Counted from the first letter of the stretch, positions 19,942-52,100 are shown. The stretch is DNA of 64,000 bases from a virus (IMGVR_UViG_3300047159_000046); one strand, 5' to 3'. Made by a program: numbers and translations. The notes: generated from the sequence alone by a model not told the origin.

Positions 19942-20220
19942 TGTTCCCCCTCCTTGTTTTACGGTTAATTGGGGATTACGGGGGAACATTGATTAAACAA
20001 TGAAACAATATTTTTTTAATTATATATATATGATAGACGATAATAAAGATAAAGAAGAGGACAACAAGCAGGGCTTGGATAATAGCGTGGCGGATATGAG
20101 TGATTTGTGGTGTATTCCCTGCGGTATGGTGGTAATAAACAAAACAAAACAATAGATATATGTTTTTTCTCCCTCCCCCCCCCTCCGTGTTTTACGGTTA
20201 ATTGGGGATTACGGGGGGGA
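19942..20220. repeat. two copies of C-rich/G-rich hairpin with core TGTTTTACGGTTAATTGGGGATTACGGGGG
   Basis: Identical 30-nt cores at 19955-19984 and 20188-20217. Confidence 0.8.
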
Positions 20221-28354: not shown

Positions 28355-28413
28355 GGGGGGGGGGTAAATTCTTGAAATTTTGCAGATATTTATCAGTAAA
28401 ATAACAAAATAAT

Positions 28414-34020: not shown

Positions 34021-34078
34021 GGGGGGGGGGTAAATTATCAAAACTTTGCAGATATTTATAGGAAAAGAAATAAAAATT

Positions 34079-37131: not shown

Positions 37132-37186
37132 GGGGGGGGCGAATTATCATAATTTTGCAGATATTTATAGGAAAGGAAATAAAAAT

Positions 37187-37985: not shown

Positions 37986-38821
37986 TTAAAATTTGATTTC
38001 ATTATCTGTTGTTATATTGTTAATTTTTCTTTCTATAAGAGATATGTAATCAGGATTTAGTTCGTAACCTATGGCTCTTACGTCCCAATTCTATTGCAGC
38101 TTTCATTGTCGTACCAGTTCCCGCAAACGGGTCTAAAACAGTATCTCCCCAAAAGCTATATAAGTTTTATCAGACGTTTGGGTAATTCGATAGGGAATGG
38201 AGCTGGATGACCTTCCAATTTAGCTTTGGCTGGTTGAATATCCCAAATAGAATTAATCGCCCATTTTTGCCATTCTTCTGAAGTCAATTTACTTTTAGTC
38301 TTTATGTCAACACTTACAGGATCTCTTTTTCCTGCTTTGGAAAATACTGTAATCCATTCGTAAGGATAAGTCGAAAATATATTAGGTGGATATGGATAAC
38401 TTCCAAAAGAGCTGAATCTTCCTACCTTTCTCTTGTCCCATATATAAAGTCCAAACTGAAACATACATCCAGTTGAATCCATGAATTGTTCAATATCTCC
38501 AAGGACCAGCTTTGTTTCTCTTCTTTCAAATCGTGCGTTTTTACCCGTTAAAAGAAAAGGCATGATATTTATACATATCTTTCCATCTGGTGCCAATACC
38601 CTAACGCATTCAGACCATACATTATTTAATGATTCAATATATGATTCATAAGAAGAACTGCCTTTACCTATTTGTCCTTTAACATCATAATCTTTCAAGG
38701 TCCAATAAGGAGGACTGGTAACAATCAGATTGACACTATTGTCTTGTATTTCTGACATATATGTAGAATCCCCTAAATACAATAGGGAATCTTTATTTCT
38801 TAATTGAATTGCTTTATTCAT
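37986..38821 (-). CDS. beta-class N4/N6 DNA methyltransferase (frameshifted near 3' end)
   Basis: IVTSPPY and HPAPFP in main ORF; motif [12 protein letters not shown] and IGYELNPDY lie downstream of 38156 in shifted frames. Confidence 0.85.
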
Positions 38822-38859: not shown

Positions 38860-39246
38860 TTCAGCCTTATTAAAAACTCAACATAATATTATTATGTCTC
38901 CAATCTTGTTTAAAGATTTGTTTTTAATACGGCAACAGACCAATAAATACCTATTGTCAATTGTTTAAAGAGCAATTCTGAAACACAGTTCCAAATACTC
39001 TATCAAAAATGCTATTTTTCAAAAAAATAAGAACATAACCATAATGTTACACTCCTCCGTCTTTTACAAGACTTTTTTGAAACGACAACAGACCAACAAA
39101 GACCTGTTGTCAATTGTTTAAAGAGCAATTCTGAAACACAGTTTCAAACACTCTATCAATTTCATGATTATTTTTCAAAAAGTAAGAACGTAACCATAAG
39201 GTTACACTCCTCTGTCTTTTACGAGACTTTTTTGAAACGACAACAG
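38860..39246 (-). ncRNA. tandem array of ~155-nt structured RNA-like repeats (omegaRNA-like) at TnpB 3' end
   Basis: Unit starts at 39246, 39091, 38938; conserved hairpins; copy 3 has different sequence but the same stems. Confidence 0.6.
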
Positions 39247-40812
39247 AACCTCCTTCACCTTATCTCTTTTCATTTTCTTGGGTTCAAAAGCTCCATTATC
39301 ACGTTTTTTTAAGAGTGAATTCCGCAACACAGTTACGAGCACTCTGTTTCTTATATTAATGGCTGCGTTGATATCCGCATTCATCTCGTGACCGCAATCA
39401 ACACATTTGAAATGTTCCTGACATTTTCTATTGTCGTCATCTATGCAACCGCATACAGGACACATTTTGGAAGTATAACTGGCATGAACGGTCGATATGG
39501 CAATATTGTATTTTCTGGCGATATGTTCAAACTCATCTTTGAGAGAGGAAATATTCAGAACACTTACAATTCTATTGAAGTTGATGTCTGCATTGTCCGA
39601 ATCGTGTACAAATGATTTTCCGAATCCGTTATCCAGATTTTCCATAACCACTTGACCTATATGCTTATCTTTAAGATACTTGCAAACATCAACAATGATA
39701 CGCTGGTTTTGATGATGTATTTTATAACGTATTTTATCAATCTTTGCCTGTCTTTTCTTTCCTATCTGGTAAGACGGACATCTTGATTTAATGGTATCCA
39801 GTTTTGTCATTTCGTCACAATAATCTTTAAGAAGTGTTCTGTCATAATCGAATACAGAGCCATCAGACAAAGAAAAAAGATTGTGTTTTATGTTCACATC
39901 AATTCCCATGGTCATTGTGTTATCAGACACTTCTGGCAGATATCTGTCCCCATCTACGCAAAAGAGGATTCTTACCTGCTTCTTGATATCATCAAGATGT
40001 ATTTTATAATATGTCGTATTCAATTTCTCATATCTTTTCATATCTCCATGATAATCAGAAGAATAAGACACTGGAATACTGCATATAACATGTCTCGATA
40101 TACAAAGATTTACAAAAGCATTAATATTTGAATTATAATTCTTATTATAAGATATAAGATTGTTCAATCCGCTTTTGATACTAAAAGTAAGAGATTTAAA
40201 TACGATAGGATAATGACTATACCGATCCATTACAAGTGTCTTATGATCTTGCGCTATACGGAAAAGTCTGTCAAATCCGAACTTGCCGATATGATTCAAA
40301 ATGTTCTGATAGAACTTCTTCTTGTTTTCATCAGCAGACTTTATTGATGTGTTGATAAAGTCCACGGTTGATTCCCGTCCATATTTAGCCAGATAGGACA
40401 ATGTAATGGAAAGAGGAGTCGTTTCATCCTTTCTGATTATCTTTTTGATTTCACCTATCTTATGTCCGTTGGAAGTTCTCTTGTATCTTTCAAATCCAGA
40501 ACACACCGTATGAACAAATTTCATCTTGTTGTTTATGGCCTCAAATTTGTTCTGATAAGCTACATATACCTCATCAATCGCCATTGCATAAAAAGCGGAT
40601 TCCAATTCAATCTTATTATAATTGTTTCTTATGAATTTGGAAAACTCAAACTTGTTCATATCCAAAAAATCATTCAGATTGGCATTAACATATACCGAAA
40701 GCTCATTTTTGAACTTGATAATCTCAATCGCCTTGGCGTGAATCTTGTCATATTTTGAACGTGTAAGAGAATTGCTTACAAAAATTTTGGTGTATTTGCT
40801 ATGCTCAATCAT
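39202..40812 (-). CDS. tnpB: TnpB/Cas12f-like RNA-guided nuclease (536 aa)
   Basis: RuvC-I GIDVN, RuvC-II VMENL, TS..CPVCG..FKCVDCG Zn finger, RuvC-III NADINAAINI; own promoter ~40843-40853; no TnpA adjacent. Confidence 0.9.
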   Translation of the reverse strand: MIEHSKYTKIFVSNSLTRSKYDKIHAKAIEIIKFKNELSVYVNANLNDFLDMNKFEFSKFIRNNYNKIELESAFYAMAIDEVYVAYQNKFEAINNKMKFVHTVCSGFERYKRTSNGHKIGEIKKIIRKDETTPLSITLSYLAKYGRESTVDFINTSIKSADENKKKFYQNILNHIGKFGFDRLFRIAQDHKTLVMDRYSHYPIVFKSLTFSIKSGLNNLISYNKNYNSNINAFVNLCISRHVICSIPVSYSSDYHGDMKRYEKLNTTYYKIHLDDIKKQVRILFCVDGDRYLPEVSDNTMTMGIDVNIKHNLFSLSDGSVFDYDRTLLKDYCDEMTKLDTIKSRCPSYQIGKKRQAKIDKIRYKIHHQNQRIIVDVCKYLKDKHIGQVVMENLDNGFGKSFVHDSDNADINFNRIVSVLNISSLKDEFEHIARKYNIAISTVHASYTSKMCPVCGCIDDDNRKCQEHFKCVDCGHEMNADINAAINIRNRVLVTVLRNSLLKKRDNGAFEPKKMKRDKVKEVLLSFQKSLVKDRGV

Positions 40813-41098: not shown

Positions 41099-42187
41099 TT
41101 ATTTATCCGATTTCTGTCTGTTACAGGACACACATAACATCTGGCAATTCTCCCTTACCGTATGTCCTCCCTTTGACCATGGAATTTTATGGTCTGCCTC
41201 CATATCCTCTTCCTTGAAATATCCTCCACATATAGGACACATTCCCCCCTGTGCCTCATAGGCAGCCAGACGGTCACCAATACCGAATTTTCTTATGCTA
41301 AGAAATTTCTCTTTCCCTGTTATCAAATATGAATATATTCCGCTCTTAGATGTCACATCGTCATCCACTATAAGACGTTTTACCTCTGATTTTAAGAATC
41401 CCGTATCAAAATCCTTATCACCATAATCATTATACAATATTCCCCATTCAACATTTTTCTGCAACTTGGCTTTCTTTTCAAACAGTGTATCAACCCATGT
41501 GCATACAGAGTTGAAATATCTGTATAACGGAGCGGCATTCTGGTCATGCTGATGAATGGCCATATAATCCTCTATATCAATATGTTCTTTTGCTGATGCC
41601 CATTTAAGTACCGTTTCAAGATAATCCTGACGTTCCACGGAGCCATTCATATAATCGCTTCCCACCTTATATGCCACACAGTCCTTTTTGCAAAAGAATT
41701 TCTTGGCATCTGTCAACCACTCTCCTGTATATGAAGCATTCCTTAGTTCCTGATCGTTCAATGATTTTCCTGCGATATTGATTACCTTGAACCATTCAAG
41801 ACGCTCTTTCGGTGAACCGTCACAGAAATATATCTGCAATTTATAGTCCAGAATCTGATTCTTCTCCTCTTCTGTAAGATTGCTGAACAGCTTGTGTTCA
41901 AAAGTAAAATCATCATGGACATATCTGCATATACTTATACTGCGTTGCTGTCCGTCAAGAACCTCGTACCTGTCACCATTAACCGCCCAGTACATAACAT
42001 TAAGAGGAAAATTGTTAACAACGGTATTGACCACGGCATCCCTATCAGCATCCTTATATACGAATTCCCTCTGATAGGCAGGTCTGATATCCAGATTGCC
42101 TTTATATCCAAATACTCCCTCTTCGTTCTTGTCAATAAATCCATCTGATAAATCCCTTACAGATATTTCATGCAATGTTATTTTCAT
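41099..42187 (-). CDS. DUF262 (GmrSD/ParB-like) plus HNH endonuclease
   Basis: PAYQREFVY, VLDGQQR, F..IN..G..L, C-terminal CPICG..EADH..PWSKGG.T..NCQMLC..CN. Confidence 0.92.
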   Translation of the reverse strand: MKITLHEISVRDLSDGFIDKNEEGVFGYKGNLDIRPAYQREFVYKDADRDAVVNTVVNNFPLNVMYWAVNGDRYEVLDGQQRSISICRYVHDDFTFEHKLFSNLTEEEKNQILDYKLQIYFCDGSPKERLEWFKVINIAGKSLNDQELRNASYTGEWLTDAKKFFCKKDCVAYKVGSDYMNGSVERQDYLETVLKWASAKEHIDIEDYMAIHQHDQNAAPLYRYFNSVCTWVDTLFEKKAKLQKNVEWGILYNDYGDKDFDTGFLKSEVKRLIVDDDVTSKSGIYSYLITGKEKFLSIRKFGIGDRLAAYEAQGGMCPICGGYFKEEDMEADHKIPWSKGGHTVRENCQMLCVSCNRQKSDK

Positions 42188-42225
42188 GTTTTATTTATTT
42201 TATTTGATTGTTTGCTTGTTCTTTT

Positions 42226-42561
42226 TCAGATATTAGGGAAAGTGGTTACACAACAGGAATGTACCTCTGAATATATTCTGTTTTGTATATGTTCTGGTAA
42301 ATCGTTGTAATTCTTTATTTTAATATTCATATTGAGATCTTCTCCGTCATATTCCAATTCTGGCTCTTCGTATTCCATGGCAGGACAATCCTTTTTGATA
42401 TCAGCCAAAGCGGAATTTACCTTAAAAACCTCCTTCTCGGCTTCTTTTAGAGGAGTGTTTTCTCTTTGTAACTGTTCAAGTTCATTCTTTATCGCTTTAT
42501 TCTCATTGACAATAGACTGTATTTCTTTCATCAATGAAGACGTATGTTCATTATTGTTCAT
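42226..42561 (-). CDS. hypothetical coiled-coil protein
   Basis: ORF between MTase and nuclease. Confidence 0.65.
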   Translation of the reverse strand: MNNNEHTSSLMKEIQSIVNENKAIKNELEQLQRENTPLKEAEKEVFKVNSALADIKKDCPAMEYEEPELEYDGEDLNMNIKIKNYNDLPEHIQNRIYSEVHSCCVTTFPNI

Positions 42562-42563
42562 AT

Positions 42564-43532
42564 TTATTTTGCCTTATTATTTGTTCTTTTTATGAATATT
42601 CGTGTAAACGGAAATTTGATATTGTTTTTAGAATCAATTATATAAACATATCTCATGGAAGGAGATATATGAGTTTTATTACCAGATTCCTTGACTTTAT
42701 GACAAATATCAGCCCCAATCTGTTCGATACCTAATTGTTTACATATTTCCATATCAGCTGAGTATCCGATAATATCAAATTCAGTATAGTTGAAATGAAA
42801 GAACGATATCGGTACTCCCATGATGCCATCATAATCAACAGGGATATCTTTTAAATTATTTATGTCAATTGCCTTACTATAATTGGCATAATGGATATAA
42901 TTGTATTTACAATAATATTTTATAATTGGCAATTGTTCCTTTTTAGATAAGACTGGGAATGTGGTAAACCATACCACGTTACCAAACTTGATATCCTCAT
43001 TGGTGATAGACATAAAAGATTTTGCACCATTGTTGAATCCTATAAACAAACGTTTTTGCATCATAAAACGGAATATATCTTTTGAAGAAACCTGATTCAT
43101 ATTTCCCAAAACAATAAAATCCTTTTTATTCTGCATCATCAATGATACATATTCTCTGAATAAAGAGAAAGGAGGATTAGTAACAACTATGTCAGCCTGT
43201 TTCAACAGATTTATACACTCTTCGCTTCTAAAGTCGCCATTTCCATTTAAAAATGCCGTTGAATTGCAGGAGTCATAACAATAACCTGTACCTCCACTTC
43301 GATAACCAGTGACAATTAATCTTTTCAATTTCAATGTGTTATAATTATTTTTGAAATACAACACGAAATTTGATTGTAAACAATCATCATACACATCACA
43401 ATTACAATAAACCGTTTTGTCAGCAAAATATTCAGAATAATAGCACAATTCTTTCTCTATGTCTATCATTCTGGTATAGAATTCATCATTCTTTTCCACT
43501 TTTGCTTTTATAAGTGATATATTATGACTCAT
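42564..43532 (-). CDS. EcoRI-methylase-family adenine MTase, copy A (divergent)
   Basis: NDEFYT, YCNCD, GDFRS.EC, VVTNPPFSLFREY, GVPI. Confidence 0.9.
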   Translation of the reverse strand: MSHNISLIKAKVEKNDEFYTRMIDIEKELCYYSEYFADKTVYCNCDVYDDCLQSNFVLYFKNNYNTLKLKRLIVTGYRSGGTGYCYDSCNSTAFLNGNGDFRSEECINLLKQADIVVTNPPFSLFREYVSLMMQNKKDFIVLGNMNQVSSKDIFRFMMQKRLFIGFNNGAKSFMSITNEDIKFGNVVWFTTFPVLSKKEQLPIIKYYCKYNYIHYANYSKAIDINNLKDIPVDYDGIMGVPISFFHFNYTEFDIIGYSADMEICKQLGIEQIGADICHKVKESGNKTHISPSMRYVYIIDSKNNIKFPFTRIFIKRTNNKAK

Positions 43533-43585
43533 TGTTTTATGTTTATAACCACAAATATAATACTATTTTTTATCTTATGCAAATA

Positions 43586-44617
43586 TTATTTAATCTTTCT
43601 TATCAAAATACGAGCATACAATAGCTTTATATAGCCTTCCCTGTTAGATGATGTATAATATACTTTGCCTGCTGGCTTGTCATTCCACAATAAACAAGGA
43701 GCAGTATTTATTTTGCTTCCGTTAGAAGTGGTCCCATCTGGATTGTTTTGTAACGTATTTTCATACCTAAAAGATGGTCCCATTCCCAAATCAAAGCGGC
43801 CCTGGGTTATTCCCAATATTTCAAACTGTTTGGGGTTGTATTTGTCAAGAAATGTGATAGGTACACCCATAACACCATCATAATCCTCTGGTATATCACA
43901 AGTCTTGTCAACATTTATGGCGTCATAATTATCGTACTTCGGATATTCCTCTGGTGTGTATTTTCTGAACAATATAAGTTCCTCATTATGTTTTGATATC
44001 GGCAGAGTGGTATACCAAAATATATTTCCGAATTTTTGTTCCGTTCCTGCTGGAGTTTTGAAAGTCTTGTTGCCATTAAGATAACCTAATCCGATTCTGT
44101 TTTCTTTGATATACGGAAACACTTCTTTATACGTTATCGCATTCATGTTCCCCAGTATAACGAAATCTTTATTGTTATCCATAAGTACCTTGACATATTC
44201 TCGAAACAGAGAGAACGGAGGATTTGTGACCACAATATCCGCCTGCTTCAACAGCTCGATACATTCATCGCTTCGGAAGTCGCCATCGCCGTTGAGCTTT
44301 CTAACATCTTTCTCTATTTCCTTGCTAATATCAATCGACTTCGGATCCACTGTAGCGAAATTAGAATCCCAATAAAGTCCACAACCTACTGAATTATAGG
44401 CAGTTACAATAATACGCTTTAAGTGTAGAATATTGAACCGCATATAAAATCATTGAACGAAGTTTGATTTTACGGGATCATCGCAGTTGCAGTATATGGT
44501 TTTTCCGACAAACATATCCTTGTAGTGCATCAACTCTTTCTCAATATCTGTAAGTCGTGTAAAGAATTCATCATTCTTGTTTTTCTTTGCATTGCTTAAA
44601 TTTATATTTTTGCTCAT
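43586..44617 (-). pseudogene. EcoRI-methylase-family MTase, copy B (TGG>TGA at 44452-44450)
   Basis: Start MSKNINLS at 44617; in-frame stop at the Trp of FVQW. Confidence 0.8.
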
Positions 44618-44634
44618 TATTATTATATGTTTTA

Positions 44635-45669
44635 TTATTTTATCTTTCTTATCAAAATACGAGTATAGATAGGATGAATATAACCATCTCTATTTGATGC
44701 TGTATAATATATTTGATTTACAGGCTTTTCCTTATTCAAGAAACATGGTTCTGTATTTATTTTACTGCCATTAATAATAGATCCGTCTATATTATGACAT
44801 AATGCTTGTTCATATTTAAATGTTGGACCTATTCCAAATTCAAAACGACCACTTGTTTGACCCAATATCTCAAACTGTTTTGGATTATATTTGTCAAGAA
44901 ATGAAATCGGCACACCAATCACTCCGTCATAATCCTCTGGAATATCACATAGTTTATCCACATTAATGGCATCATAATTGTCGTACTTTGGATATGCTTC
45001 TGGAGTGTACTTTCTGAACAATATAAGCTCCTCATTGTGTTTGGAAATAGGGAATGTCGTATACCAACAAATATTAACAGTCTTTTCTTCCCCATTGGGA
45101 ATGATAAACGACTTTCCTCCATTTGTAAATCCCAATCCTATCTTATTGTTTTTGATATAAGGAAATACTTCTTTATATTTTAGAGCATTCATGTTTCCTA
45201 TAATTAAAAACTCTTTATTGTTATCCATAAGAACTTTGACATATTCTCTAAACAGCGAGAACGGAGGGTTTGTGACCACAATATCAGCCTGTTTCAACAG
45301 CTCTATACATTCCTCGCTTCTAAAGTCACCGTTCCCGTTGAGTTTCCTGACATCTTTCTCAATTTCCTTGCTGATATCAAGCGACTTCGGATCCACTGTA
45401 GCGAAATCGGAATCCCAATAATACCCCCACCCATTACAAGTATCTGAATTATAGGCAGTTACAATAACACGTTTCAAATGTAGAATATTGAACCGCATAT
45501 AGAACCACTGAACGAAGTTTGATTTGACGGGATCATCGCAGTTACAATAAATAGTTTTTCCTACAAACATATCTTTGTAGTGCATCAACTCCTTTTCGAT
45601 ATCCGTGAGCTTTGTATAAAACTCATCGTTCTTGGCCTTGTTGGCTCTATTCAATTTTTGATTGTTCAT
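44635..45669 (-). CDS. EcoRI-methylase-family adenine MTase, copy C
   Basis: Intact, NPPF motif, own promoter ~45688-45697. Confidence 0.92.
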   Translation of the reverse strand: MNNQKLNRANKAKNDEFYTKLTDIEKELMHYKDMFVGKTIYCNCDDPVKSNFVQWFYMRFNILHLKRVIVTAYNSDTCNGWGYYWDSDFATVDPKSLDISKEIEKDVRKLNGNGDFRSEECIELLKQADIVVTNPPFSLFREYVKVLMDNNKEFLIIGNMNALKYKEVFPYIKNNKIGLGFTNGGKSFIIPNGEEKTVNICWYTTFPISKHNEELILFRKYTPEAYPKYDNYDAINVDKLCDIPEDYDGVIGVPISFLDKYNPKQFEILGQTSGRFEFGIGPTFKYEQALCHNIDGSIINGSKINTEPCFLNKEKPVNQIYYTASNRDGYIHPIYTRILIRKIK

Positions 45670-45772
45670 TTTTTATTTGTTTTACAGCACAAAGATACAA
45701 ACCAAAAGTCACAAAAGCAAAAAAAACAGACACATTTCTGCATCTGTTTAAGAATTATTAACAAAATTGGTT

Positions 45773-46126
45773 TTATCGTTTCATATCATTGTCAAATATT
45801 ATTTCAATATTTGGACTTAAATCGGCACAATTAACAGGACCAATAAGCAAGTCTCCCTCGTATTTTCCGAGAAACTCACTCCACATCTCTGTTTCGTCTT
45901 TCTGATATTCAGGATTGTCTCTTCTGATGCTTTCGGGAGCCACCTCTACCACATGAAATTCAGTTGAGTGGTCATAGTAATATCTGATATGGATATCTTT
46001 ATATTTATTTGACCATTTATCAAGATATGATTTAATAAAAACAGCTTCTGTATCTTTCATTCTACCAATTTGTATTAGGGAAAACCACATTATCGGGCCA
46101 TAAATCTTTCTGTCCGTCTTTGTCAA
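45773..46126 (-). CDS. hypothetical protein
   Basis: ORF; start probably MKDTE. Confidence 0.6.
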   Translation of the reverse strand: MTKTDRKIYGPIMWFSLIQIGRMKDTEAVFIKSYLDKWSNKYKDIHIRYYYDHSTEFHVVEVAPESIRRDNPEYQKDETEMWSEFLGKYEGDLLIGPVNCADLSPNIEIIFDNDMKR

Positions 46127-46622
46127 TGCTGAAAATAAGACTATCGTTGTGTGTTATGGCTTCATGAAACAGGAGCTGATTTCCCAGTTCTATTTCCTGA
46201 CGGGCAGAACATGCAATTTGCAAAGCCACTCCTACACAAGAAAACATATTGCCGTAATTATTAAATAATTGCGTGGCAAAATCAACAGCCTTACCATAAT
46301 CCTTTAAAGACATCATTGGTTCATAGCTTCCCATTAATTGTTGAAGTTGCGCCTTGTTTTCATCTTTTGGAACCTTTTTTATTCCCACAACAGTTAAAGA
46401 ACTCTCCGCACCATATTTAAATGATTCAAGTTTGGATACTTCATCATCAGTAAGAAGTCTGTATGAATAATCCTTATTAAAAAACTCGCTATTAGGATTG
46501 ATAAGTTCAGATGCTCCTGTGTTAAACAACGCTTTTTCAAAAGACATGGGCACAAAAGCATACACAACGACACCATCATCTTTTTGATAATGAACCTCAT
46601 AAAAATCCAGTAATTTATTCAT
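46062..46622 (-). CDS. hypothetical protein
   Basis: Start probably MNKLL; promoter ~46648-46656. Confidence 0.7.
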   Translation of the reverse strand: MNKLLDFYEVHYQKDDGVVVYAFVPMSFEKALFNTGASELINPNSEFFNKDYSYRLLTDDEVSKLESFKYGAESSLTVVGIKKVPKDENKAQLQQLMGSYEPMMSLKDYGKAVDFATQLFNNYGNMFSCVGVALQIACSARQEIELGNQLLFHEAITHNDSLIFSIDKDGQKDLWPDNVVFPNTNW

Positions 46623-46680
46623 ATCTGATTTTAATATTTTATTATTACACAAAGATAGATATTTATTTTGACTATACAAT

Positions 46681-47637
46681 CTATTTTAACATCTTTCTTT
46701 TGATTATAATTCTTTGATATACACATTTCCCATTAATCTTTGATAGATATTTTCCTTGTATTTTTTCTGTAGGTCCACCATCAAGAGATGAATATCTACC
46801 AATAGAGTCTACAATTTCAAACTGTTTGGGATTATATTTGTCCATAAACGAAATAGGAACACCCATCAGTCCATAATAATCAGCAGGTATATCACACGTT
46901 TTATCCACGTTAATGGCATCATAATCATCGTACTTCGGATATAATTCTGGAGTGTATTTCCGAAACAACACAAGTTCTTCATTATGTTTTTCAATCGGAA
47001 AAGTTGTATACCAACATATTGCAGGCACTTTAACTACTCCATTCTCCGAGTTATAAGTATCAGGAACATCGAACTCCATTACTTTATTAAAACCATAACC
47101 TGTACGTATCTTGTTCTCCTTGACATACGGAAATACTGCATAATATTTCAGCGCATTCATATTTCCCATAACAACGAAATCTTTATTGTTGTCCATAAGA
47201 ACTGTCATATATTCCCTGAACAGCGAGAACGGAGGATTTGTGACCACAATATCAGCCTGTTTCAACAGTTCGATACACTCATCACTTCGGAAATCACCGT
47301 TACCATTGAGTTTCCTCACATCCTTTGATATTTCCTTGCTGATATCAATGGACTTAGGGTCCACTGTAGCAAAATCGGAATCCCAATAATACCCCCCCCC
47401 GTTGCAAGTATCTGAATTATAAGCAGTTACGATAATGCGTTTTAAGTGCAAGATATTGAACCGCATATAGAACCATTGAACAAAGTTGGACTTGACAGGA
47501 TCATCGCAATTACAGTAGATTGTCTTTCCTACAAACATATCCTTGTAGTGCATCAGCTCTTTCTCGATATCTGTAAGTTTTGTATAAAATTCATCGTTCT
47601 TGGCCTTTTGGGCTTCCTTCAATTTTTTGGTATCCAT
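46681..47637 (-). CDS. EcoRI-methylase-family adenine MTase, copy D
   Basis: Start MDTKK; NPPF; in-frame G9 tract at 47392-47400. Confidence 0.92.
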   Translation of the reverse strand: MDTKKLKEAQKAKNDEFYTKLTDIEKELMHYKDMFVGKTIYCNCDDPVKSNFVQWFYMRFNILHLKRIIVTAYNSDTCNGGGYYWDSDFATVDPKSIDISKEISKDVRKLNGNGDFRSDECIELLKQADIVVTNPPFSLFREYMTVLMDNNKDFVVMGNMNALKYYAVFPYVKENKIRTGYGFNKVMEFDVPDTYNSENGVVKVPAICWYTTFPIEKHNEELVLFRKYTPELYPKYDDYDAINVDKTCDIPADYYGLMGVPISFMDKYNPKQFEIVDSIGRYSSLDGGPTEKIQGKYLSKINGKCVYQRIIIKRKMLK

Positions 47638-47641
47638 ATTT

Positions 47642-48250
47642 TTAATTCCAATATTCGGCAGCTTCGTCAAAATTAAGATAGAAATGGATTCCGCCTGCAC
47701 ATTCAAAAGAGAAATCATCATTGTAGTTATCACATACAATCATTTCTCCCAATTTATATATAAAATCTTTATCATTGATAGAAACGGCCTGTTTCTTGTT
47801 GCTATGCTTCCTGTTTAAATCAAGAATCTCAATTACCTTGGCCTTGTCACATCTGTATCTATTTTCGTCAGATAACGACAAACATCTTTTTGCATCCTCT
47901 GGTATTTCCAATTTGACAATAAGATTGTCCTTGCATTTTTTATAGCCAATCATTTTTTTGTTTTGAGGAGCTGGAGTATATCCATCAACACGAATCCATG
48001 AGCCATCACGCATTTTCATCCATGGCAATCTTATTTCAGATGCCCATTCGCTTAACAATACGGTTCCTCCTGCTGTAATATAATTCCATTCCTTATTCTT
48101 ATTCTGAATAAAATACGAACCATCACATCGCCATGTAAACGCCATTAACAGATTTTCGTCAAACAATTTATTATCATTATTGTCAACAAAATTATAACTG
48201 TTTTTATAGTTCTCAGTATATTTTACCCAATGATACTTTTTGTTTTCCAT
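47642..48250 (-). CDS. DUF5758-like domain protein
   Basis: IGYKKC..IVKLEIPEDAKR..RCDKAKV..ECAGGIHF. Confidence 0.7.
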   Translation of the reverse strand: MENKKYHWVKYTENYKNSYNFVDNNDNKLFDENLLMAFTWRCDGSYFIQNKNKEWNYITAGGTVLLSEWASEIRLPWMKMRDGSWIRVDGYTPAPQNKKMIGYKKCKDNLIVKLEIPEDAKRCLSLSDENRYRCDKAKVIEILDLNRKHSNKKQAVSINDKDFIYKLGEMIVCDNYNDDFSFECAGGIHFYLNFDEAAEYWN

Positions 48251-48679
48251 CTATGAAATCTTTTTTAATTCAGCATCAACATGAATAGGTTCATTCAATG
48301 TTTCCCATTCTGTGATATAATTGGAATCAACTGGTTTGCCACCATTGAACGTGTATATGGTAATATGCGGATTTTGATTGACACACATATCCGAATTGAC
48401 ATCGGTCATAAATGCCATTGCCTTGTCTGATCGACCGATAGCTGTAACATTAAAATCGAATTTTGTATGATTGCTTTGAATCCAAAAATCAAGTTTTTGT
48501 TTCAGATCCTCATTCCCATTAATTTTTGAACAATGCAACAATGTACAATGGTCCAGATACAGTCTGGCATCTTCTGGAACTAATCCATCAGCATATCTTT
48601 TTACATCTTTCAACAGTTTATTTCTCGAATCATCTGTAAGAAACAAGCCATAATAAATGAAATCACAATTTTTTCCCAT
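48251..48679 (-). CDS. 2H phosphoesterase (2',3'-cyclic phosphodiesterase-like)
   Basis: Two HxT motifs (HCTL, PHITI) and KPVDSN. Confidence 0.8.
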   Translation of the reverse strand: MGKNCDFIYYGLFLTDDSRNKLLKDVKRYADGLVPEDARLYLDHCTLLHCSKINGNEDLKQKLDFWIQSNHTKFDFNVTAIGRSDKAMAFMTDVNSDMCVNQNPHITIYTFNGGKPVDSNYITEWETLNEPIHVDAELKKIS

Positions 48680-49739
48680 CTATATATCTTTTTGTTTTTT
48701 TACCGTCTTTAATAATAGTGATGCTTCCATAAGCATCAACTGGACTGCCATTATCTATTTTTTCATCAAGTATGTATTTGCCATCCAAATCTGCATAATT
48801 GACCATTAGATCCTCATCCATGACCTTGATATAACCATTGGAATACATAACACTGTACCACCAATCTGGCAATATGAATTGTCTGGTTCTTAAATCAAAA
48901 TAATTCATTTTTCCGTCATGTAATACCTTGCATAACATAGTCTTATCCCATCTTCTTTCAGGATTCCATATAACCATATTCTCCACCTCTTTTACCACCA
49001 TTCCAGCATCGTTCTTTTCCTCATCAGTTTTGAGTGTAAGAATGTGTTTCAGCTTATCCTCGTAGGCTTTGGTGTTTTCAGAACAGATAAGATGGGACTT
49101 GTTATTCTTATCAATAAAAACAGAATAATATTTATCCTCCACATCATCATACTCAAAACATCCAGTTTTGACAACATACTTATCACTATATATATTACTT
49201 ACAACATTTCTGTTATTATATCCAGTGTCTAAAAAGGTGATATAATTATATTGTAACTTATTATTTTCTTGCTTATTTTCCTCACAAATATTAGCCAATT
49301 TTCCCGCAAAAGGCGCAGCCTTATAATAGGTTCTGGATTGAATATAATTGTTTTCATTCTCAAAATAAAATCTCCCCTCCATTCTGTCATATATTAATTT
49401 CAGCAAGTAACCCTTATAATAACGCTCAAAGTAGTTTTTCGTCATGGTTCCTTGAAATTGAATCATTCTGGCAGTATATTGGGTATGGTCGGTTGCAAAT
49501 TCGTTTGTACCAGCGGTTACCAACAGTCTCAAAACATAGATATGGTTGGAATATTCATTTTTTAAAGCATCAAAAGGAGAGTTATATACCAAAAGGTCTC
49601 CGCAATTCTTATTGTTTTTGGTTTTATAAGACACCTTGATCTCATGATCCTTATCATTGGGATCAATACAGAAACCCTCGGATGTATAGAATTTACTATT
49701 TCTCCTAACCGCTGTTTTATAACACATGAATCCTACCAT
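48663..49739 (-). CDS. hypothetical protein with short beta repeats
   Basis: Repeated NY.D..G..IL pattern. Confidence 0.75.
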   Translation of the reverse strand: MVGFMCYKTAVRRNSKFYTSEGFCIDPNDKDHEIKVSYKTKNNKNCGDLLVYNSPFDALKNEYSNHIYVLRLLVTAGTNEFATDHTQYTARMIQFQGTMTKNYFERYYKGYLLKLIYDRMEGRFYFENENNYIQSRTYYKAAPFAGKLANICEENKQENNKLQYNYITFLDTGYNNRNVVSNIYSDKYVVKTGCFEYDDVEDKYYSVFIDKNNKSHLICSENTKAYEDKLKHILTLKTDEEKNDAGMVVKEVENMVIWNPERRWDKTMLCKVLHDGKMNYFDLRTRQFILPDWWYSVMYSNGYIKVMDEDLMVNYADLDGKYILDEKIDNGSPVDAYGSITIIKDGKKTKRYIDGKKL

Positions 49740-49802
49740 ATTTATTTAGTTTTATTTGTTTTACAACGCAAAGATACAAACAATATTTCAATCCTGCAAA
49801 TA

Positions 49803-50698
49803 TTATTCAATCTTTTTTATAAATATTCTGGAATACATTCTTTTTCCTGCGACATAACCTCTTCCTCTATCTATATTCAAACTGTACTCATTCCCAATAA
49901 TTTCAAACTGTTTCGGATTATATTTATCCAGAAATGAAATCGGCACACCAATCACTCCGTCATAATCCTCTGGAATATCACATAGTTTATCCACATTAAT
50001 GGCATCATAATTGTCGTACTTCGGATATGATTCTGGAGTGTACTTTCTGAACAATATAAGCTCCTCATTGTGTTTGGAAATAGGGAATGTCGTATACCAA
50101 CAAATATTAACAGTCTTTTTCTTCCCCATTGGGAATGATAAACGACTTTCCTCCATTTGTAAATCCCAATCCTATCTTGTTGTTTTTGATATAAGGAAAC
50201 ACTTCTTTATACGTTATCGCATTCATGTTCCCCAGTATAACAAAATCTTTATTGTTATCCATCAAGTACTTTGACATACTCCCGAAACAGCGAGAACGGA
50301 GGATTTGTGACCACAATATCAGCTTGCTTTAACAGCTCGATACATTCATCGCTTCTAAAGTCACCATTCCGTTAAGTTTCCTGAACGTCTTTCTCAATTT
50401 CCTTGCTGATATCAATCGACTTCGGGTCCACTGTAGCAAAATCGGAATCCCAATAAAGTCCACAACCTACTGAATTATAAGCAGTTACAATAATTCTCTT
50501 TAAGTGTAAAATATTGAACCGCATATAGAACCACTTAACAAAGTTAGACTTGACAGGATCATCGCAATTACAGTAGATTGTCTTTCCTACAAACATCTCC
50601 TTGTAGTGCATCAATTCTTTTTCGACATCTGTCAGTTTGGTGTAGAATTCATCATTCTTGTTTTTCTTTGCATTGCTTAAATTTATATTTTTGCTCAT
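49803..50698 (-). pseudogene. EcoRI-methylase-family MTase, copy E (frameshifted)
   Basis: ORF fragments 50372-50698, 50107-50316, 49803-50156 reconstitute one gene; may be sequencing indels. Confidence 0.8.
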
Positions 50699-50716
50699 TA
50701 TATATTATATGTTTTA

Positions 50717-51728
50717 TTATTTTCTCTTTCTTATCAAAATACGAATATACAACTGTTTTATATAGCCCTCCCTGTTAGATGCTGTATAATATACTTTATC
50801 TGCAGGCTTGTCCTTAAATAATAAACAAGGGGCGGTATTTATTTTGCTTCCGTTGGAAGTGGTCCCATCTGGATTGTTTTGTAACGTGTTTTCATATTTG
50901 ACAGTTGGACCTATTCCAAATTCAAAACGACCACTCGTTTGTCCCAATATATCAAACTGGTTTGGATTATATTTCTCTATGAAAGAAATAGGAACACCCA
51001 TCGCACCATCATAATCATATGGTATATCGCACGTCTTGTCAACATTAATAGCATCATAATTGTCGTATTTGGGAAACTCTTCGGGAGTGTAGTGCTTATA
51101 TAATATAAGTTCTTCATTATGTTTGGCAATCGGCAAAGTTGTGTACCAAAAGATGTTTCCGAATTTTTGTTCCGTTCCTGCTGGAGTTTTGAAAGTCTTG
51201 ACCTCCATTAAGATGATAACCTAAGCCAATTTGTTCTCCTTGATATACGGGAATACTTCTTTATATTTTATAGCGTTCATGTTTCCAAGAATAACAAAAT
51301 CTTTATTGTTATCCATCAACACTTTAACATATTCTCTGAACAGCGAGAACGGAGGATTGGTGACCACAATATCCGCCTGCTTTAACAGCTCGATACATTC
51401 ATCGCTTCTAAATCACCGTTTCCGTTAAGTTTCCTGACATCTTTTCATATTTCTTTGCTGATATCAATCGACTTCGGGTCCACTGTAGCAAAATCGGAAT
51501 CCCAATAATCCCCCCCCCCCGTTACAAGCAGCTGAATTAAAAGCAGTTACAATAATACGTTTCAAGTGTAATATATTGAAATTCATATAGAACCACTTTA
51601 CAAAGTTTGATTTTGTTGGATTGTCGCAATTACAGTAGATAGTTTTACCGACAAACATATCTTTGTAGTGCATCAACTCTTTTTCGATGTCTGTATTCTG
51701 AGTTTTGTATAGAACTCATCGTTCTTCA
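50717..51728 (-). pseudogene. EcoRI-methylase-family MTase, copy F (frameshifted, N-terminus lost)
   Basis: Begins at KNDEFYT abutting the RNA ligase fragment; G11 tract 51510-51520 out of frame. Confidence 0.8.
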
Positions 51729-52100
51729 AGAACTTTCACTGCCGTACATTTCACCAAATACTTCTATAACTGCGTCAGAATGTAAATCAAACACGTCTCC
51801 GCACGCTTTATTGAGTTTATCTATAATGGTTTGATGTAAAGCCTTATGTCGTGGCTCAAAAAAAGCAGATTCTGTTTTACCTCTGGCGTATATATTTGCG
51901 GTTTCGGTTTCGGAACTTGTTTCTATCACAAAAGATGTGTTTGTACCGTCAATCTTTTCGGTGGAGTACATCTTGATACCCTCATCGAACATCCATTTTG
52001 CAACGGGAGAAACAAATTCTGGGACAATGCAATTGGTTGCTTTGTCTCTCATAAATACAGTGTTGATTTTCTGATAAAAACTATGTTTTGATTTGCTCAT
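51726..52100 (-). pseudogene. RNA ligase (Rnl2-like) N-terminal fragment
   Basis: YQKINT, motif I TEKIDGTN, motif III VFGEMYG, then abrupt end. Confidence 0.75.

What the first reader, a model, noticed from the sequence alone, without database searches (positions are those of the whole stretch)
41099..51728. One DUF262-HNH nuclease with six methylase paralogues whose two variable regions are combinatorially shuffled
Seen: copies B-F share near-identical catalytic scaffolds (A is more divergent) but differ in V1 (before W(Y/F)TT) and V2 (C-terminal). V1: B=F (KTFKTPAGTEQKFGNIF), C=E (GGKSFIIPNGEEKTVNIC), A and D unique. V2: C long, E short and unrelated despite the same V1; F is a C/B hybrid (GQTSGRFEFGIGPT + ENTLQNNPDGTTSNG); A and D unique. 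N-termini: B=E. Known: target-recognition-domain exchange changes specificity in Type I/III systems. Inference: a phage repertoire generating new, possibly bipartite, methylation specificities by recombination; if the MTase also directs the nuclease, it is a multi-specificity restriction weapon, with broken copies as silent donors.
Basis: partly seen in the sequence, partly recalled or inferred. Interest (0 to 1): 0.85.

Follow-up and report, generated by a model that had tools for sequence, protein, structure and literature searches.

The report
Phage methylase array beside restriction cassette
A giant sludge phage carries one restriction-type nuclease and six related DNA-methylase genes (three intact, three broken) that swap two short variable segments by recombination. 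This most likely lets the phage mark its DNA at several motifs to escape host restriction.

Summary
Six EcoRI-family (PF13651) adenine-methylase paralogues lie on the minus strand at 42564-51725, next to a DUF262(GmrSD_N)-HNH nuclease at 41099-42187.

- **State of the copies.** A, C and D are intact. B has one TGA at a Trp codon. E and F are multiply frameshifted.
- **Mosaicism is real.** A GENECONV-type run test gives p<=0.0004 for five pairs, and PHI gives p=0.0002. Two independent sister-strain assemblies are identical in A, B and D. Almost all their differences fall in E and F. E carries a different V1 in the sister strain, so the window's E V1 is most simply a recent patch copied from C.
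- **V1 and V2 reassort freely.** This holds both in related phages and in bacterial relatives.
- **The nuclease is a catalogued type.** It matches a PADLOC Type II REase profile over its full length. In about 150 bacterial and viral loci it sits directly behind a single EcoRI-family methylase. The nuclease stays constant while V1 and V2 vary. This scan has reported that cassette several times before on other DNA.
- **What is new here.** The array itself is new. A plus the nuclease look like the cassette. B-F belong to a phage subfamily that elsewhere occurs without a nuclease.

Best reading (0.55): an anti-restriction methylase repertoire sitting beside a phage-borne R-M cassette. The idea that the methylases guide the nuclease as a multi-specificity weapon stays open (about 0.2). 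The idea that the broken copies are silent donors is not shown.

The parts
41099..42187 (-). DUF262 (GmrSD_N, ParB-like NTPase, DGQQR) + HNH nuclease, 362 aa, intact
   Evidence: Pfam. PADLOC REase_II PDLC03418 matched full length, E 3.7e-120. All invariant family residues are present, including D78-R82, D332, H333, N347 and N356.
42226..42561 (-). 111-aa ORF of unknown function between methylase A and the nuclease; it is not part of the bacterial cassette
   Evidence: Searches give only weak coiled-coil hits. It is present in L008 and L009.
42564..43532 (-). Methylase A: intact, divergent (scaffold 49% aa to B-D); likely cognate partner of the nuclease
   Evidence: PF13651 E 1.2e-75. It is adjacent to the nuclease. 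Its homologue distribution is isolated in the same way as the nuclease's. It forms a clade with B-D (support 0.99).
43586..44617 (-). Methylase B: intact except for a TGA at 44450-44452 in place of a Trp codon; V1 type shared with F
   Evidence: The same lesion and identical sequence occur in L008 and L009.
44635..45669 (-). Methylase C: intact, 344 aa; donor of the V1 patch found in E
   Evidence: PF13651 E 2.2e-105. An identical protein is found on other contigs.
45067..45144 (-). V1 of copy C (residues 176-201, just before the WYTT motif)
   Evidence: These are the least conserved columns in the phage family and in the nuclease-linked methylases. In the model they form a beta-hairpin.
44638..44862 (-). 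V2 of copy C (residues 270-344, C-terminal variable region)
   Evidence: It lies after the catalytic domain, which aligns to M.TaqI, MmeI, CamA and M.BseCI.
46681..47637 (-). Methylase D: intact, 318 aa, unique V1 and short V2; G9 run at 47392-47400 encodes Gly-Gly-Gly
49803..50698 (-). Methylase E: pseudogene (at least 4 indels). It is a mosaic of B-like (50645-50681), D-like (50549-50588) and C-like (49936-50211) tracts, with its own short V2
   Evidence: The sister strain L008 has a different V1 and different lesions.
50717..51725 (-). Methylase F: pseudogene. The start is lost by a deletion, and it has a 5-bp insertion, a G11 run (51510-51520), a TGA and indels. V1 is B-like. V2 is C-like at 50904-50935, then B-like
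   Evidence: Runs X1 and X2 hold 431 extra letters at 51726/51737.
45773..46679 (-). Two ORFs of unknown function between C and D
   Evidence: no family found.
47642..49739 (-). Three genes between D and E: DUF5758 protein, 2H/CPD phosphoesterase-like protein, 358-aa unknown

Best explanation
The locus joins two things in a variable, anti-defence-type region of a T4-like jumbo phage from sludge.

(i) A phage-borne copy of the widespread two-gene R-M cassette, an EcoRI-family m6A methylase followed by a DUF262-HNH nuclease. Here that is methylase A, an inserted 111-aa gene and the nuclease.

(ii) An array of five paralogues (B-F) from a phage-specific subfamily of the same methylase family. Elsewhere this subfamily occurs as nuclease-free ('orphan') genes in 1-3 copies.

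Each paralogue keeps a strongly constrained catalytic scaffold and differs in two short modules. V1 is a hairpin before the WYTT motif. V2 is the C-terminal region, in the position of the target-recognition domain of gamma-class methylases.

Homologous recombination between the conserved scaffold stretches (gene conversion within the array and exchange with related phages) moves V1 and V2 independently and makes new V1-V2 pairs.

The inferred function is methylation of the phage genome at several motifs. This would protect it from host restriction systems, many of which are the same cassette with varied V1/V2, and from its own nuclease.

The array turns over: C and D are active, B was recently knocked out, and E and F are decaying and still being overwritten.

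Shown: the gene content, the mosaic structure, strain-level conversion, family-wide reassortment, the synteny of nuclease and methylase, and purifying selection on the scaffolds.

Inferred: that V1 and V2 set DNA specificity, that methylation is protective, and that A is the nuclease's partner.
For: Families and integrity:
- Pfam and PADLOC assignments.
- All invariant catalytic residues are present in A, C, D and the nuclease.

Mosaic structure:
- Sliding identity, run test and PHI.
- E 49936-50211 is 98.2% identical to C.

Strain comparison:
- L008 (98.3%) and L009 (99.7%) come from other samples.
- There are 0 differences in A, B and D, 106 in E, 95 in F, and a 7-site synonymous patch in C at the NPPF motif.
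- L008's E carries a V1 that occurs in an intact relative, P0045.

Reassortment:
- In related phages.
- In nuclease-linked methylases: 103 pairs share V1 but not V2, and 5 pairs show the reverse. Correlations are ~0.07-0.10.

Selection: scaffold dN/dS is 0.04-0.05 with dS>1 among B, C and D, so the copies are old and were each kept by selection.

Cassette:
- 67 of 87 genomic loci have a full methylase abutting the nuclease.
- 77 of 90 viral loci have exactly one methylase. Only this phage lineage has four or more.

Orphan status of the B-F subfamily:
- More than 100 clusters at 65-92% identity to C, but no nuclease at 61-97% identity.
- L010, L178 and L180 have 3, 2 and 1 methylases and no nuclease within 10 kb.

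A mirrors the nuclease's isolated distribution.

Neighbourhood: an RNA ligase fragment and a 2H phosphoesterase-like gene are interleaved, which are RNA-repair, anti-defence-type functions.

Fold: the catalytic domain is gamma-class (M.TaqI Z 10.9, rmsd 3.3, 156 aligned; MmeI Z 10.1), and V2 lies behind it.
Against: - No methylation motif is known for any copy. That V1 and V2 determine specificity rests on position and on analogy.
- Three of six array members are broken, so part of the array is not functional now.
- The window's V1 and V2 types do not closely match those in the sampled nuclease-linked cassettes (best 0.45-0.73 identity). Direct mimicry of a host cassette is therefore not shown.
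- A clusters with B-D in the scaffold tree. A separate origin for 'cassette' and 'array' is therefore not clear-cut.
- The host is unknown.
Confidence: 0.55

Rival explanations
1. Multi-specificity restriction weapon. The constant nuclease has no sequence specificity of its own and is targeted or licensed by an EcoRI-family methylase, using Type III-like logic. Because the scaffolds of B-D are conserved, every intact methylase of the array both protects phage DNA and arms the single nuclease. The phage then cuts host or competitor DNA that lacks any of several marks. Recombination of V1 and V2 reprograms the system.
For: - The nuclease is almost invariant while the partner methylases differ. 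Nucleases 96-99% identical sit with methylases whose V1 is only 23-31% identical. 41 of 54 pairs with >=80% identical nucleases have an unrelated V1 or V2. The nuclease has no hypervariable stretch.
- A change of methylase specificity with a fixed-specificity nuclease would be lethal in a classical Type II system.
- Loci with two methylases of different V1 and/or V2 before one nuclease recur: L025/L026 (same V2, different V1), L074, L098, L173.
- The phage nuclease keeps all catalytic residues.
- Earlier reports of this scan reached the same inference on other genomes. That is a lead, not independent support.
Against: - The B-F subfamily thrives without any nuclease in related phages.
- Only A is next to the nuclease, and even A is separated from it by an extra gene.
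- No interaction, guidance or cleavage has been shown for any family member in the papers found.
- A later check of an earlier scan report gave its bold reading low odds.
Confidence: 0.2
2. Decaying duplicates. The array is a remnant of tandem duplications in a hypervariable region. Gene conversion is a passive consequence of sequence similarity. The copies add little beyond one protective methylase.
For: - B, E and F are broken.
- The window strain has also lost the start of F and the 3' end of the neighbouring RNA ligase by a deletion. It has a frameshifted N6_N4 methylase at 38156-38821 that is intact in sister strains.
- Strain differences concentrate in the pseudogenes.
Against: - dS>1 with dN/dS 0.04-0.05 among B, C and D shows long, separate maintenance by selection.
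- The V1 and V2 types of D, E and F occur in intact genes of other phages, in many combinations.
- A, C and D are identical or near-identical and intact in three assemblies.
Confidence: 0.12
3. Switchable epigenetic or self-marking methylases. The methylases act mainly on phage or host gene expression or packaging. On/off switching at the G runs in D and F, together with recombination, gives population heterogeneity.
For: - There is a G9 run in frame in D and a G11 run out of frame in F, in a 33% G+C genome.
- One contig of run X13 lacks one G in C's G run at 45428.
Against: - D's run has the same length in the window and in L008.
- The contigs laid cannot show length heterogeneity within a population.
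- No regulatory target is known.
Confidence: 0.05
4. Assembly chimera. The mosaics arise from mis-joined reads of similar paralogues.
For: - Public unitigs break inside the methylase copies.
- The contigs behind L008 and L009 end inside or next to the array.
Against: - Three assemblies from different samples agree on the order and on the sequence of A, B, C and D.
- The C-like tract in E differs from C at 4 substitutions and 1 indel, and it is flanked on both sides by E-specific sequence.
- Mosaic V1-V2 combinations recur as intact proteins in many independent metagenomes.
Confidence: 0.02

Closest known systems
EcoRI-family methylase + DUF262-HNH nuclease cassette (PADLOC MTase_II PDLC03297 / REase_II PDLC03418); reported several times by this scan on other genomes
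   Same: The nuclease matches the profile over its full length. A methylase of the same family lies upstream on the same strand. The variable V1 and V2 are the same ones, and the nuclease is constant.
   Different: - This locus has six methylase paralogues instead of one. Only ~5 of ~170 loci have two, and none has more.
- An extra 111-aa gene separates A from the nuclease.
- It sits in a jumbo phage.
- I found no paper on the nuclease's biochemistry.
Movement of target-recognition domains between paralogous mod and hsdS genes in Helicobacter pylori (Furuta and Kobayashi, PMC3467074; PMC3077401)
   Same: Specificity modules move between non-allelic paralogues by homologous recombination at conserved flanking motifs. 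The trees of the variable and conserved parts disagree.
   Different: - Those are Type III (beta-class, one central TRD) and Type I S subunits in a bacterial chromosome.
- Here the enzyme is a gamma-class Type II-like methylase with two separately moving short modules, in a tandem array in a phage.
Multispecific C5-methylases of Bacillus phages SPbeta, phi3T, rho11 and H2 (from my own knowledge; not checked in a paper here)
   Same: The methylases are phage-encoded and give protection against several host restriction specificities through modular, exchangeable recognition domains.
   Different: - Those pack several TRDs into one polypeptide and make m5C.
- Here there are separate m6A genes, each with one V1-V2 pair, plus a nuclease.
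Chlorovirus methylase and R-M repertoires (PMC7248222)
   Same: A large virus devotes many genes to DNA methylases, some paired with nucleases and some orphan or inactive.
   Different: - The chlorovirus genes are of many unrelated families and are dispersed.
- Here there is one family in one array, with demonstrable conversion between members.
Type III R-M (EcoP15I Mod/Res)
   Same: The logic would be shared only if the rival reading holds: the methylase carries all specificity, and a conserved nuclease subunit depends on it.
   Different: There is no helicase/ATPase Res. The nuclease is a ParB-like NTPase plus HNH. The methylase is gamma-class, not beta-class.
GmrSD / BrxU Type IV enzymes
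   Same: They share the N-terminal DUF262 domain with the DGQQR motif and a C-terminal His-Me nuclease.
   Different: - The nuclease domain here is PF01844 HNH with CxxC pairs. No DUF1524 match was listed.
- The protein is about 360 aa.
- It is always paired with a methylase, which is not expected of a modification-dependent enzyme.

Membership tests
EcoRI_methylase family (PF13651), gamma-class N6-adenine DNA methylase | Profile match above Pfam's gathering score | tested here: met
   A 255 bits, B 267, C 353, D 360 (cut-off 26.4). The fragments of E and F score 109-126 bits.
EcoRI_methylase family (PF13651), gamma-class N6-adenine DNA methylase | Catalytic motif IV (NPPF) and the N-terminal DEF(Y/F)T motif are present | tested here: met
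   D15, E16, F17, T19 and N134-F137 are invariant in an alignment that includes A, C and D. B keeps them but is interrupted by a TGA.
EcoRI_methylase family (PF13651), gamma-class N6-adenine DNA methylase | Rossmann-type catalytic domain like the solved gamma-class DNA methylases, with the recognition region behind it | tested here: met
   M.TaqI Z 10.9 (rmsd 3.3, 156 aligned), MmeI 10.1, M.BseCI 9.9, CamA 9.8, over model residues ~10-220. rRNA methylases score as high, so the fold alone does not prove a DNA substrate. Model pLDDT is 74.6.
EcoRI_methylase family (PF13651), gamma-class N6-adenine DNA methylase | m6A methylation of a defined DNA motif | not testable with these tools
   This needs methylome sequencing or a biochemical assay.
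Methylase + DUF262-HNH R-M cassette (PADLOC Type II profiles) | Nuclease matches the REase profile over its full length | tested here: met
   PDLC03418, E 3.7e-120, residues 1-362 on profile positions 1-372.
Methylase + DUF262-HNH R-M cassette (PADLOC Type II profiles) | DGQQR NTPase motif and HNH catalytic residues intact | tested here: met
   all invariant columns of 26 homologues are present in the window protein.
Methylase + DUF262-HNH R-M cassette (PADLOC Type II profiles) | EcoRI-family methylase immediately upstream on the same strand, abutting or overlapping the nuclease gene | tested here: inconclusive
   - In 67 of 87 genomic loci the methylase ends within -120 to +200 nt of the nuclease start.
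- Here A is upstream on the same strand, but 376 nt away, with a 111-aa ORF in between.
Methylase + DUF262-HNH R-M cassette (PADLOC Type II profiles) | The nuclease restricts DNA that lacks the methylase's mark | not testable with these tools
   No experiment on any family member was found in the papers searched.
GmrSD-type Type IV restriction enzymes | DUF262 fused to DUF1524, acting alone on modified DNA | tested here: not met
   GmrSD_N is present, but the C-terminal domain matches PF01844/PF14279 HNH and no DUF1524 match was listed. The gene is linked to a methylase in nearly all loci. Modification dependence itself is not testable here.
Type III R-M (Mod/Res) | Res subunit with helicase-type ATPase motor; beta-class Mod with a central TRD | tested here: not met
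   there is no helicase domain in the 362-aa nuclease. The methylase has gamma-class motif order (DEFYT ... NPPF ... C-terminal variable region) and fold.
Inversion shufflons of specificity genes (phase-variable Type I hsdS) | Oppositely oriented gene copies with inverted repeats and a site-specific recombinase | tested here: not met
   all six copies are co-oriented. Pfam found no recombinase family in the products scanned between 38156 and 52845. The neighbouring gene is a TnpB-like nuclease.
Silent-cassette gene conversion systems (pilE/pilS type) | Directional transfer from promoterless or broken donor copies into one expressed copy | tested here: inconclusive
   The only tract that can be given a direction, by parsimony, runs from intact C into broken E. 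A 7-site patch in C of L008 has no identified donor.

The most novel reading that the evidence does not exclude
The ParB-like/HNH nuclease reads no sequence itself and is aimed by whichever scaffold-compatible EcoRI-family methylase is present. This phage would then run a single nuclease with a recombining library of specificity-giving methylases. That would be a reprogrammable, multi-specificity restriction system used by a virus against host or rival DNA. It would also be the clearest natural test bed for an undescribed class of methylase-guided R-M.
Probability: 0.15. Interest if true: 0.85.

Novelty: new variant of a known kind. Interest (0 to 1): 0.6.

Why it matters
- **Phage host range.** Phage-encoded methylases are a main route past restriction, but how their specificities diversify is poorly documented. 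This locus gives a natural series: three intact, one freshly broken and two decaying paralogues, plus sister strains. In that series, two short modules can be seen moving independently between copies.
- **Engineering.** If V1 and V2 each read part of the target, the family would be a compact, engineerable two-module adenine methylase.
- **An unstudied R-M family.** The locus also bears on a very widespread cassette whose nuclease stays constant while its methylase varies. A phage with several methylases and one nuclease is the simplest system in which to test whether the methylase guides cutting.
- **Metagenomics.** Such arrays break assemblies and could confound methylation-based binning of phages.

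Tried and rejected
- **Near-identical DNA in GenBank phages:** megablast of the region found no match. A protein search found only single, distant methylases at <=49% identity.
- **Own genome:** no whole genome is held for this window.
- **Solved structures by sequence:** nothing for methylase C. Foldseek gave only generic Rossmann methylases.
- **Complex prediction of nuclease with methylase C:** no verdict, score 0.00. This is not evidence either way.
- **Reads:** only Logan contigs were available, not raw reads. Within-population recombinants, G-tract length heterogeneity and spanning support could not be tested. A low-depth X8 unitig joining E to B, and single-contig indels, may come from paralogues or from related phages.
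- **Suppressor tRNA that could read B's TGA:** no tRNA gene was found in the window. Several neighbouring genes end in TGA, so general TGA recoding is unlikely.
- **First attempts to extract and cluster V1 and V2:** a fuzzy pattern picked wrong anchors. Single-linkage clustering lumped the B and C types. Both were replaced by alignment columns and reference-type matching.
- **Literature:** searches for DUF262 + HNH + methyltransferase, EcoRI-like + HNH, PF13651, and jumbo phage methylase paralogues found no paper on this nuclease family or on such an array.
- **PHROGs and Pfam** gave nothing for the 111-aa ORF or for three of the interleaved genes.

Full report
**What is there**

Between 41099 and 51725 all genes run on the minus strand.

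Pfam finds six members of the EcoRI methylase family PF13651, and one protein with a GmrSD_N (DUF262) domain followed by an HNH domain. A profile built from the family finds no other copy in the 64-kb window.

Reading all frames and aligning the DNA of the six copies gives their state:
- A (42564-43532), C (44635-45669) and D (46681-47637) are intact.
- B (43586-44617) is intact except for a TGA at 44450-44452, where C, D, E and F have TGG.
- E (49803-50698) has at least four single-base indels.
- F (50717-51725) has lost its start. It carries a 5-bp insertion, an out-of-frame G11 run, a TGA and further indels.

So the count of six is right, but half of the copies are broken.

Other genes are interleaved in the array: a DUF5758 protein, a 2H/CPD phosphoesterase-like protein and several unknowns. 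An N-terminal fragment of an RNA ligase lies upstream of F.

The sequence belongs to a large phage. The identical C protein lies on a contig of 241.5 kb. A DNA polymerase processivity factor family matches a window gene, and large-terminase families match another more weakly. The stretch is held by bioreactor-sludge and wastewater runs from 11 studies. Earlier notes of this scan call it a T4-like jumbo phage.

**The mosaic is real**

Background DNA identity among B-F is 75-88%, but some tracts are far closer:
- E 49936-50211 is 271/276 identical to C. This tract covers V1 and the scaffold behind it.
- The 5' end and leader of E are 97% identical to B.
- A short tract of E is 98% identical to D.
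- F's V2 starts C-like (93%) and continues B-like (85-95%).

Two tests support this. A run test on 374 polymorphic sites with 5000 permutations gives p 0.0002-0.0004 for B-E, B-F, C-E, C-F and D-E. A PHI-type statistic gives p 0.0002.

The scaffolds are conserved by selection, not by youth. Among B, C and D, dN/dS is 0.04-0.05 with synonymous sites saturated.

**Sister strains show the process at work**

Contigs from two other JGI samples carry the same locus: L008 at 98.3% identity and L009 at 99.7%.

- A, B and D are identical to the window. The interleaved genes are nearly so.
- E differs at 106 positions and F at 95.
- In L008, E has a different, in-frame V1. That V1 also occurs in an intact methylase of another metagenome, joined to E's V2 (P0045). 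The simplest reading is that the window's E received its V1 from C recently.
- E and F are broken in L008 too, but by different lesions.
- C of L008 carries seven clustered synonymous changes around the NPPF motif, the signature of a short conversion tract.

The shared order and the shared lesion in B in three assemblies rule out an assembly chimera.

Public unitigs break inside the copies, so spanning support and within-population variants could not be examined. Those data do show that other populations hold 431 more letters between 51726 and 51737. This means the window strain has a deletion that removed the start of F and the end of the RNA ligase gene.

**V1 and V2 assort independently, here and everywhere in the family**

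In 120 close relatives of C, the least conserved columns are exactly V1 (C residues 176-201) and V2 (from residue 270).

- D-type V1 occurs with D-, C- and F-type V2.
- B/F-type V1 occurs with C-type, F-type and other V2.
- E-type V2 occurs with at least four V1 types.
- Many of these combinations sit in intact genes.

**The nuclease belongs to a known cassette**

The nuclease matches PADLOC's Type II REase profile PDLC03418 over its full length (E 3.7e-120). The methylases match MTase_II PDLC03297.

Homologues of constant length (~362 aa) and 53-60% identity occur in at least 599 species of many phyla and in 142 viral contigs.

In 67 of 87 genomic loci, a full EcoRI-family methylase ends within -120 to +200 nt of the nuclease start on the same strand. 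Most of the rest are contig edges or frameshifted genes.

Across these pairs:
- Median identity is 29% in V1, 22% in V2, 60% in the methylase scaffold and 62% in the nuclease.
- V1 and V2 identity correlate neither with each other nor with the nuclease (Spearman 0.07-0.10).
- Nucleases 96-99% identical sit behind methylases with unrelated V1.

The nuclease has no hypervariable segment. This 'constant nuclease, variable methylase' pattern was reported before by this scan on other genomes. I re-derived it here from fresh loci. No paper describing the nuclease was found.

**What is special about this phage**

Of 90 viral loci scanned, 77 have exactly one full-length methylase. A few bacterial and viral loci have two before one nuclease: L025/L026 have the same V2 and a different V1, and L074, L098 and L173 differ in both. 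Only this phage lineage has four or more.

The copies are not equivalent:
- C-type methylases have more than 100 clusters at 65-92% identity in metagenomes.
- The nuclease has one cluster at 98% and then nothing above 60%.
- A has one cluster at 97% and then nothing above 59%.
- Related phage contigs carry 1-3 C-type methylases and no nuclease within 10 kb (L010, L178, L180).

I therefore read A plus the nuclease as the cassette. I read B-F as an array from a phage subfamily that normally works without a nuclease. Against a clean split, A groups with B-D in a scaffold tree (support 0.99).

**Mechanism**

The AlphaFold model of C (pLDDT 74.6) has a catalytic domain that aligns with gamma-class DNA adenine methylases: M.TaqI Z 10.9, MmeI 10.1, M.BseCI 9.9 and CamA 9.8. 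In these enzymes the recognition domain follows the catalytic domain, which is where V2 lies. V1 is a hairpin just before the WYTT motif.

That V1 and V2 set the DNA target is an inference from three points: their position, their discrete and conserved types, and their reassortment.

Recombination between the conserved scaffold stretches explains the exchange. All copies are co-oriented and no recombinase family was found in the products scanned, so inversion shuffling is excluded.

The most likely function is protective methylation at several motifs. The RNA-repair-type neighbours fit an anti-defence region.

The stronger idea is that the methylases aim the nuclease, which would make the array a multi-specificity weapon. 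It follows logically from the family pattern. However, nothing here shows that B-F serve the nuclease. A complex prediction gave no verdict.

The 'silent donor' idea is not supported, because the one tract that can be given a direction, on parsimony, runs from intact C into broken E.

**Verdict**

- The cassette is a known, catalogued kind that this scan has met repeatedly.
- The six-copy, actively converting array beside it in a jumbo phage is a new variant and a good experimental handle.

Noticed in passing
window 37990-38821 (-): A beta-class N6_N4 methylase (PF01555) is split by two frameshifts in the window, which cut off the C-terminal FAGTGTT motif. The same gene is an intact 277-aa ORF in the sister strains L008 and L009.
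   Followed up: partly
window 51726-52100 (-) and the junction 51726/51737: This is an N-terminal fragment of an RNA ligase (PF09414). Runs X1 and X2 hold 431 extra letters at this junction, so the window strain carries a deletion that removed the ligase's 3' part and the start of methylase F.
   Followed up: partly
window 48251-48679 (-): A 142-aa protein with a 2H/cyclic-phosphodiesterase-like match (tRNA_lig_CPD, E 5e-5). Together with the RNA ligase it suggests RNA-repair (anti-anticodon-nuclease) genes interleaved with the methylases.
   Followed up: no
window 20175-20183, 28355-28364, 34021-34030, 37132-37139: There are four G/C runs of 8-10 bases in a 33% G+C genome. Three sit in the same repeated intergenic element, with a conserved ~25-nt left flank, the G run, and then a TTTGCAGATAT-type box. 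This is probably a shared terminator/promoter module.
   Followed up: no
window 47392-47400 (D), 51510-51520 (F), 45424-45428 (C): Homopolymeric G tracts lie inside the methylase genes at the same codon positions: G9 in frame in D, G11 out of frame in F, and an interrupted run in C. One contig of run X13 lacks one G in C's run. Slippage-driven on/off switching is possible but untested.
   Followed up: partly
window 50416 joined to 44349 (run X8): A low-depth unitig (8.6 against ~79) joins E-like sequence to B-like sequence with 13 other letters between. It is either a minor recombinant or a paralogue from a related phage.
   Followed up: no
window 39202-40812 (-): A 536-aa TnpB/Cas12f-like protein lies directly downstream of the nuclease. 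Another report of this scan has already followed it up (guide-RNA scaffold array).
   Followed up: no
L025 2361-7089 and L026 3355-6782 (Treponema MAGs): Two tandem methylases lie before one nuclease. Their scaffolds are 91-93% identical, their V2 regions are the same (the first ~70 residues shown are identical) and their V1 differs. This is a natural V1-only swap, useful for testing what V1 reads.
   Followed up: partly
L011 4186-7092 and L013 4272-7092: In these Bacillota loci a small HTH_26 gene precedes a longer (454-488 aa) methylase and the nuclease, like the controller proteins of classical R-M operons. Pfam's precomputed hits miss the long methylase, but the family profile built here finds it.
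   Followed up: no
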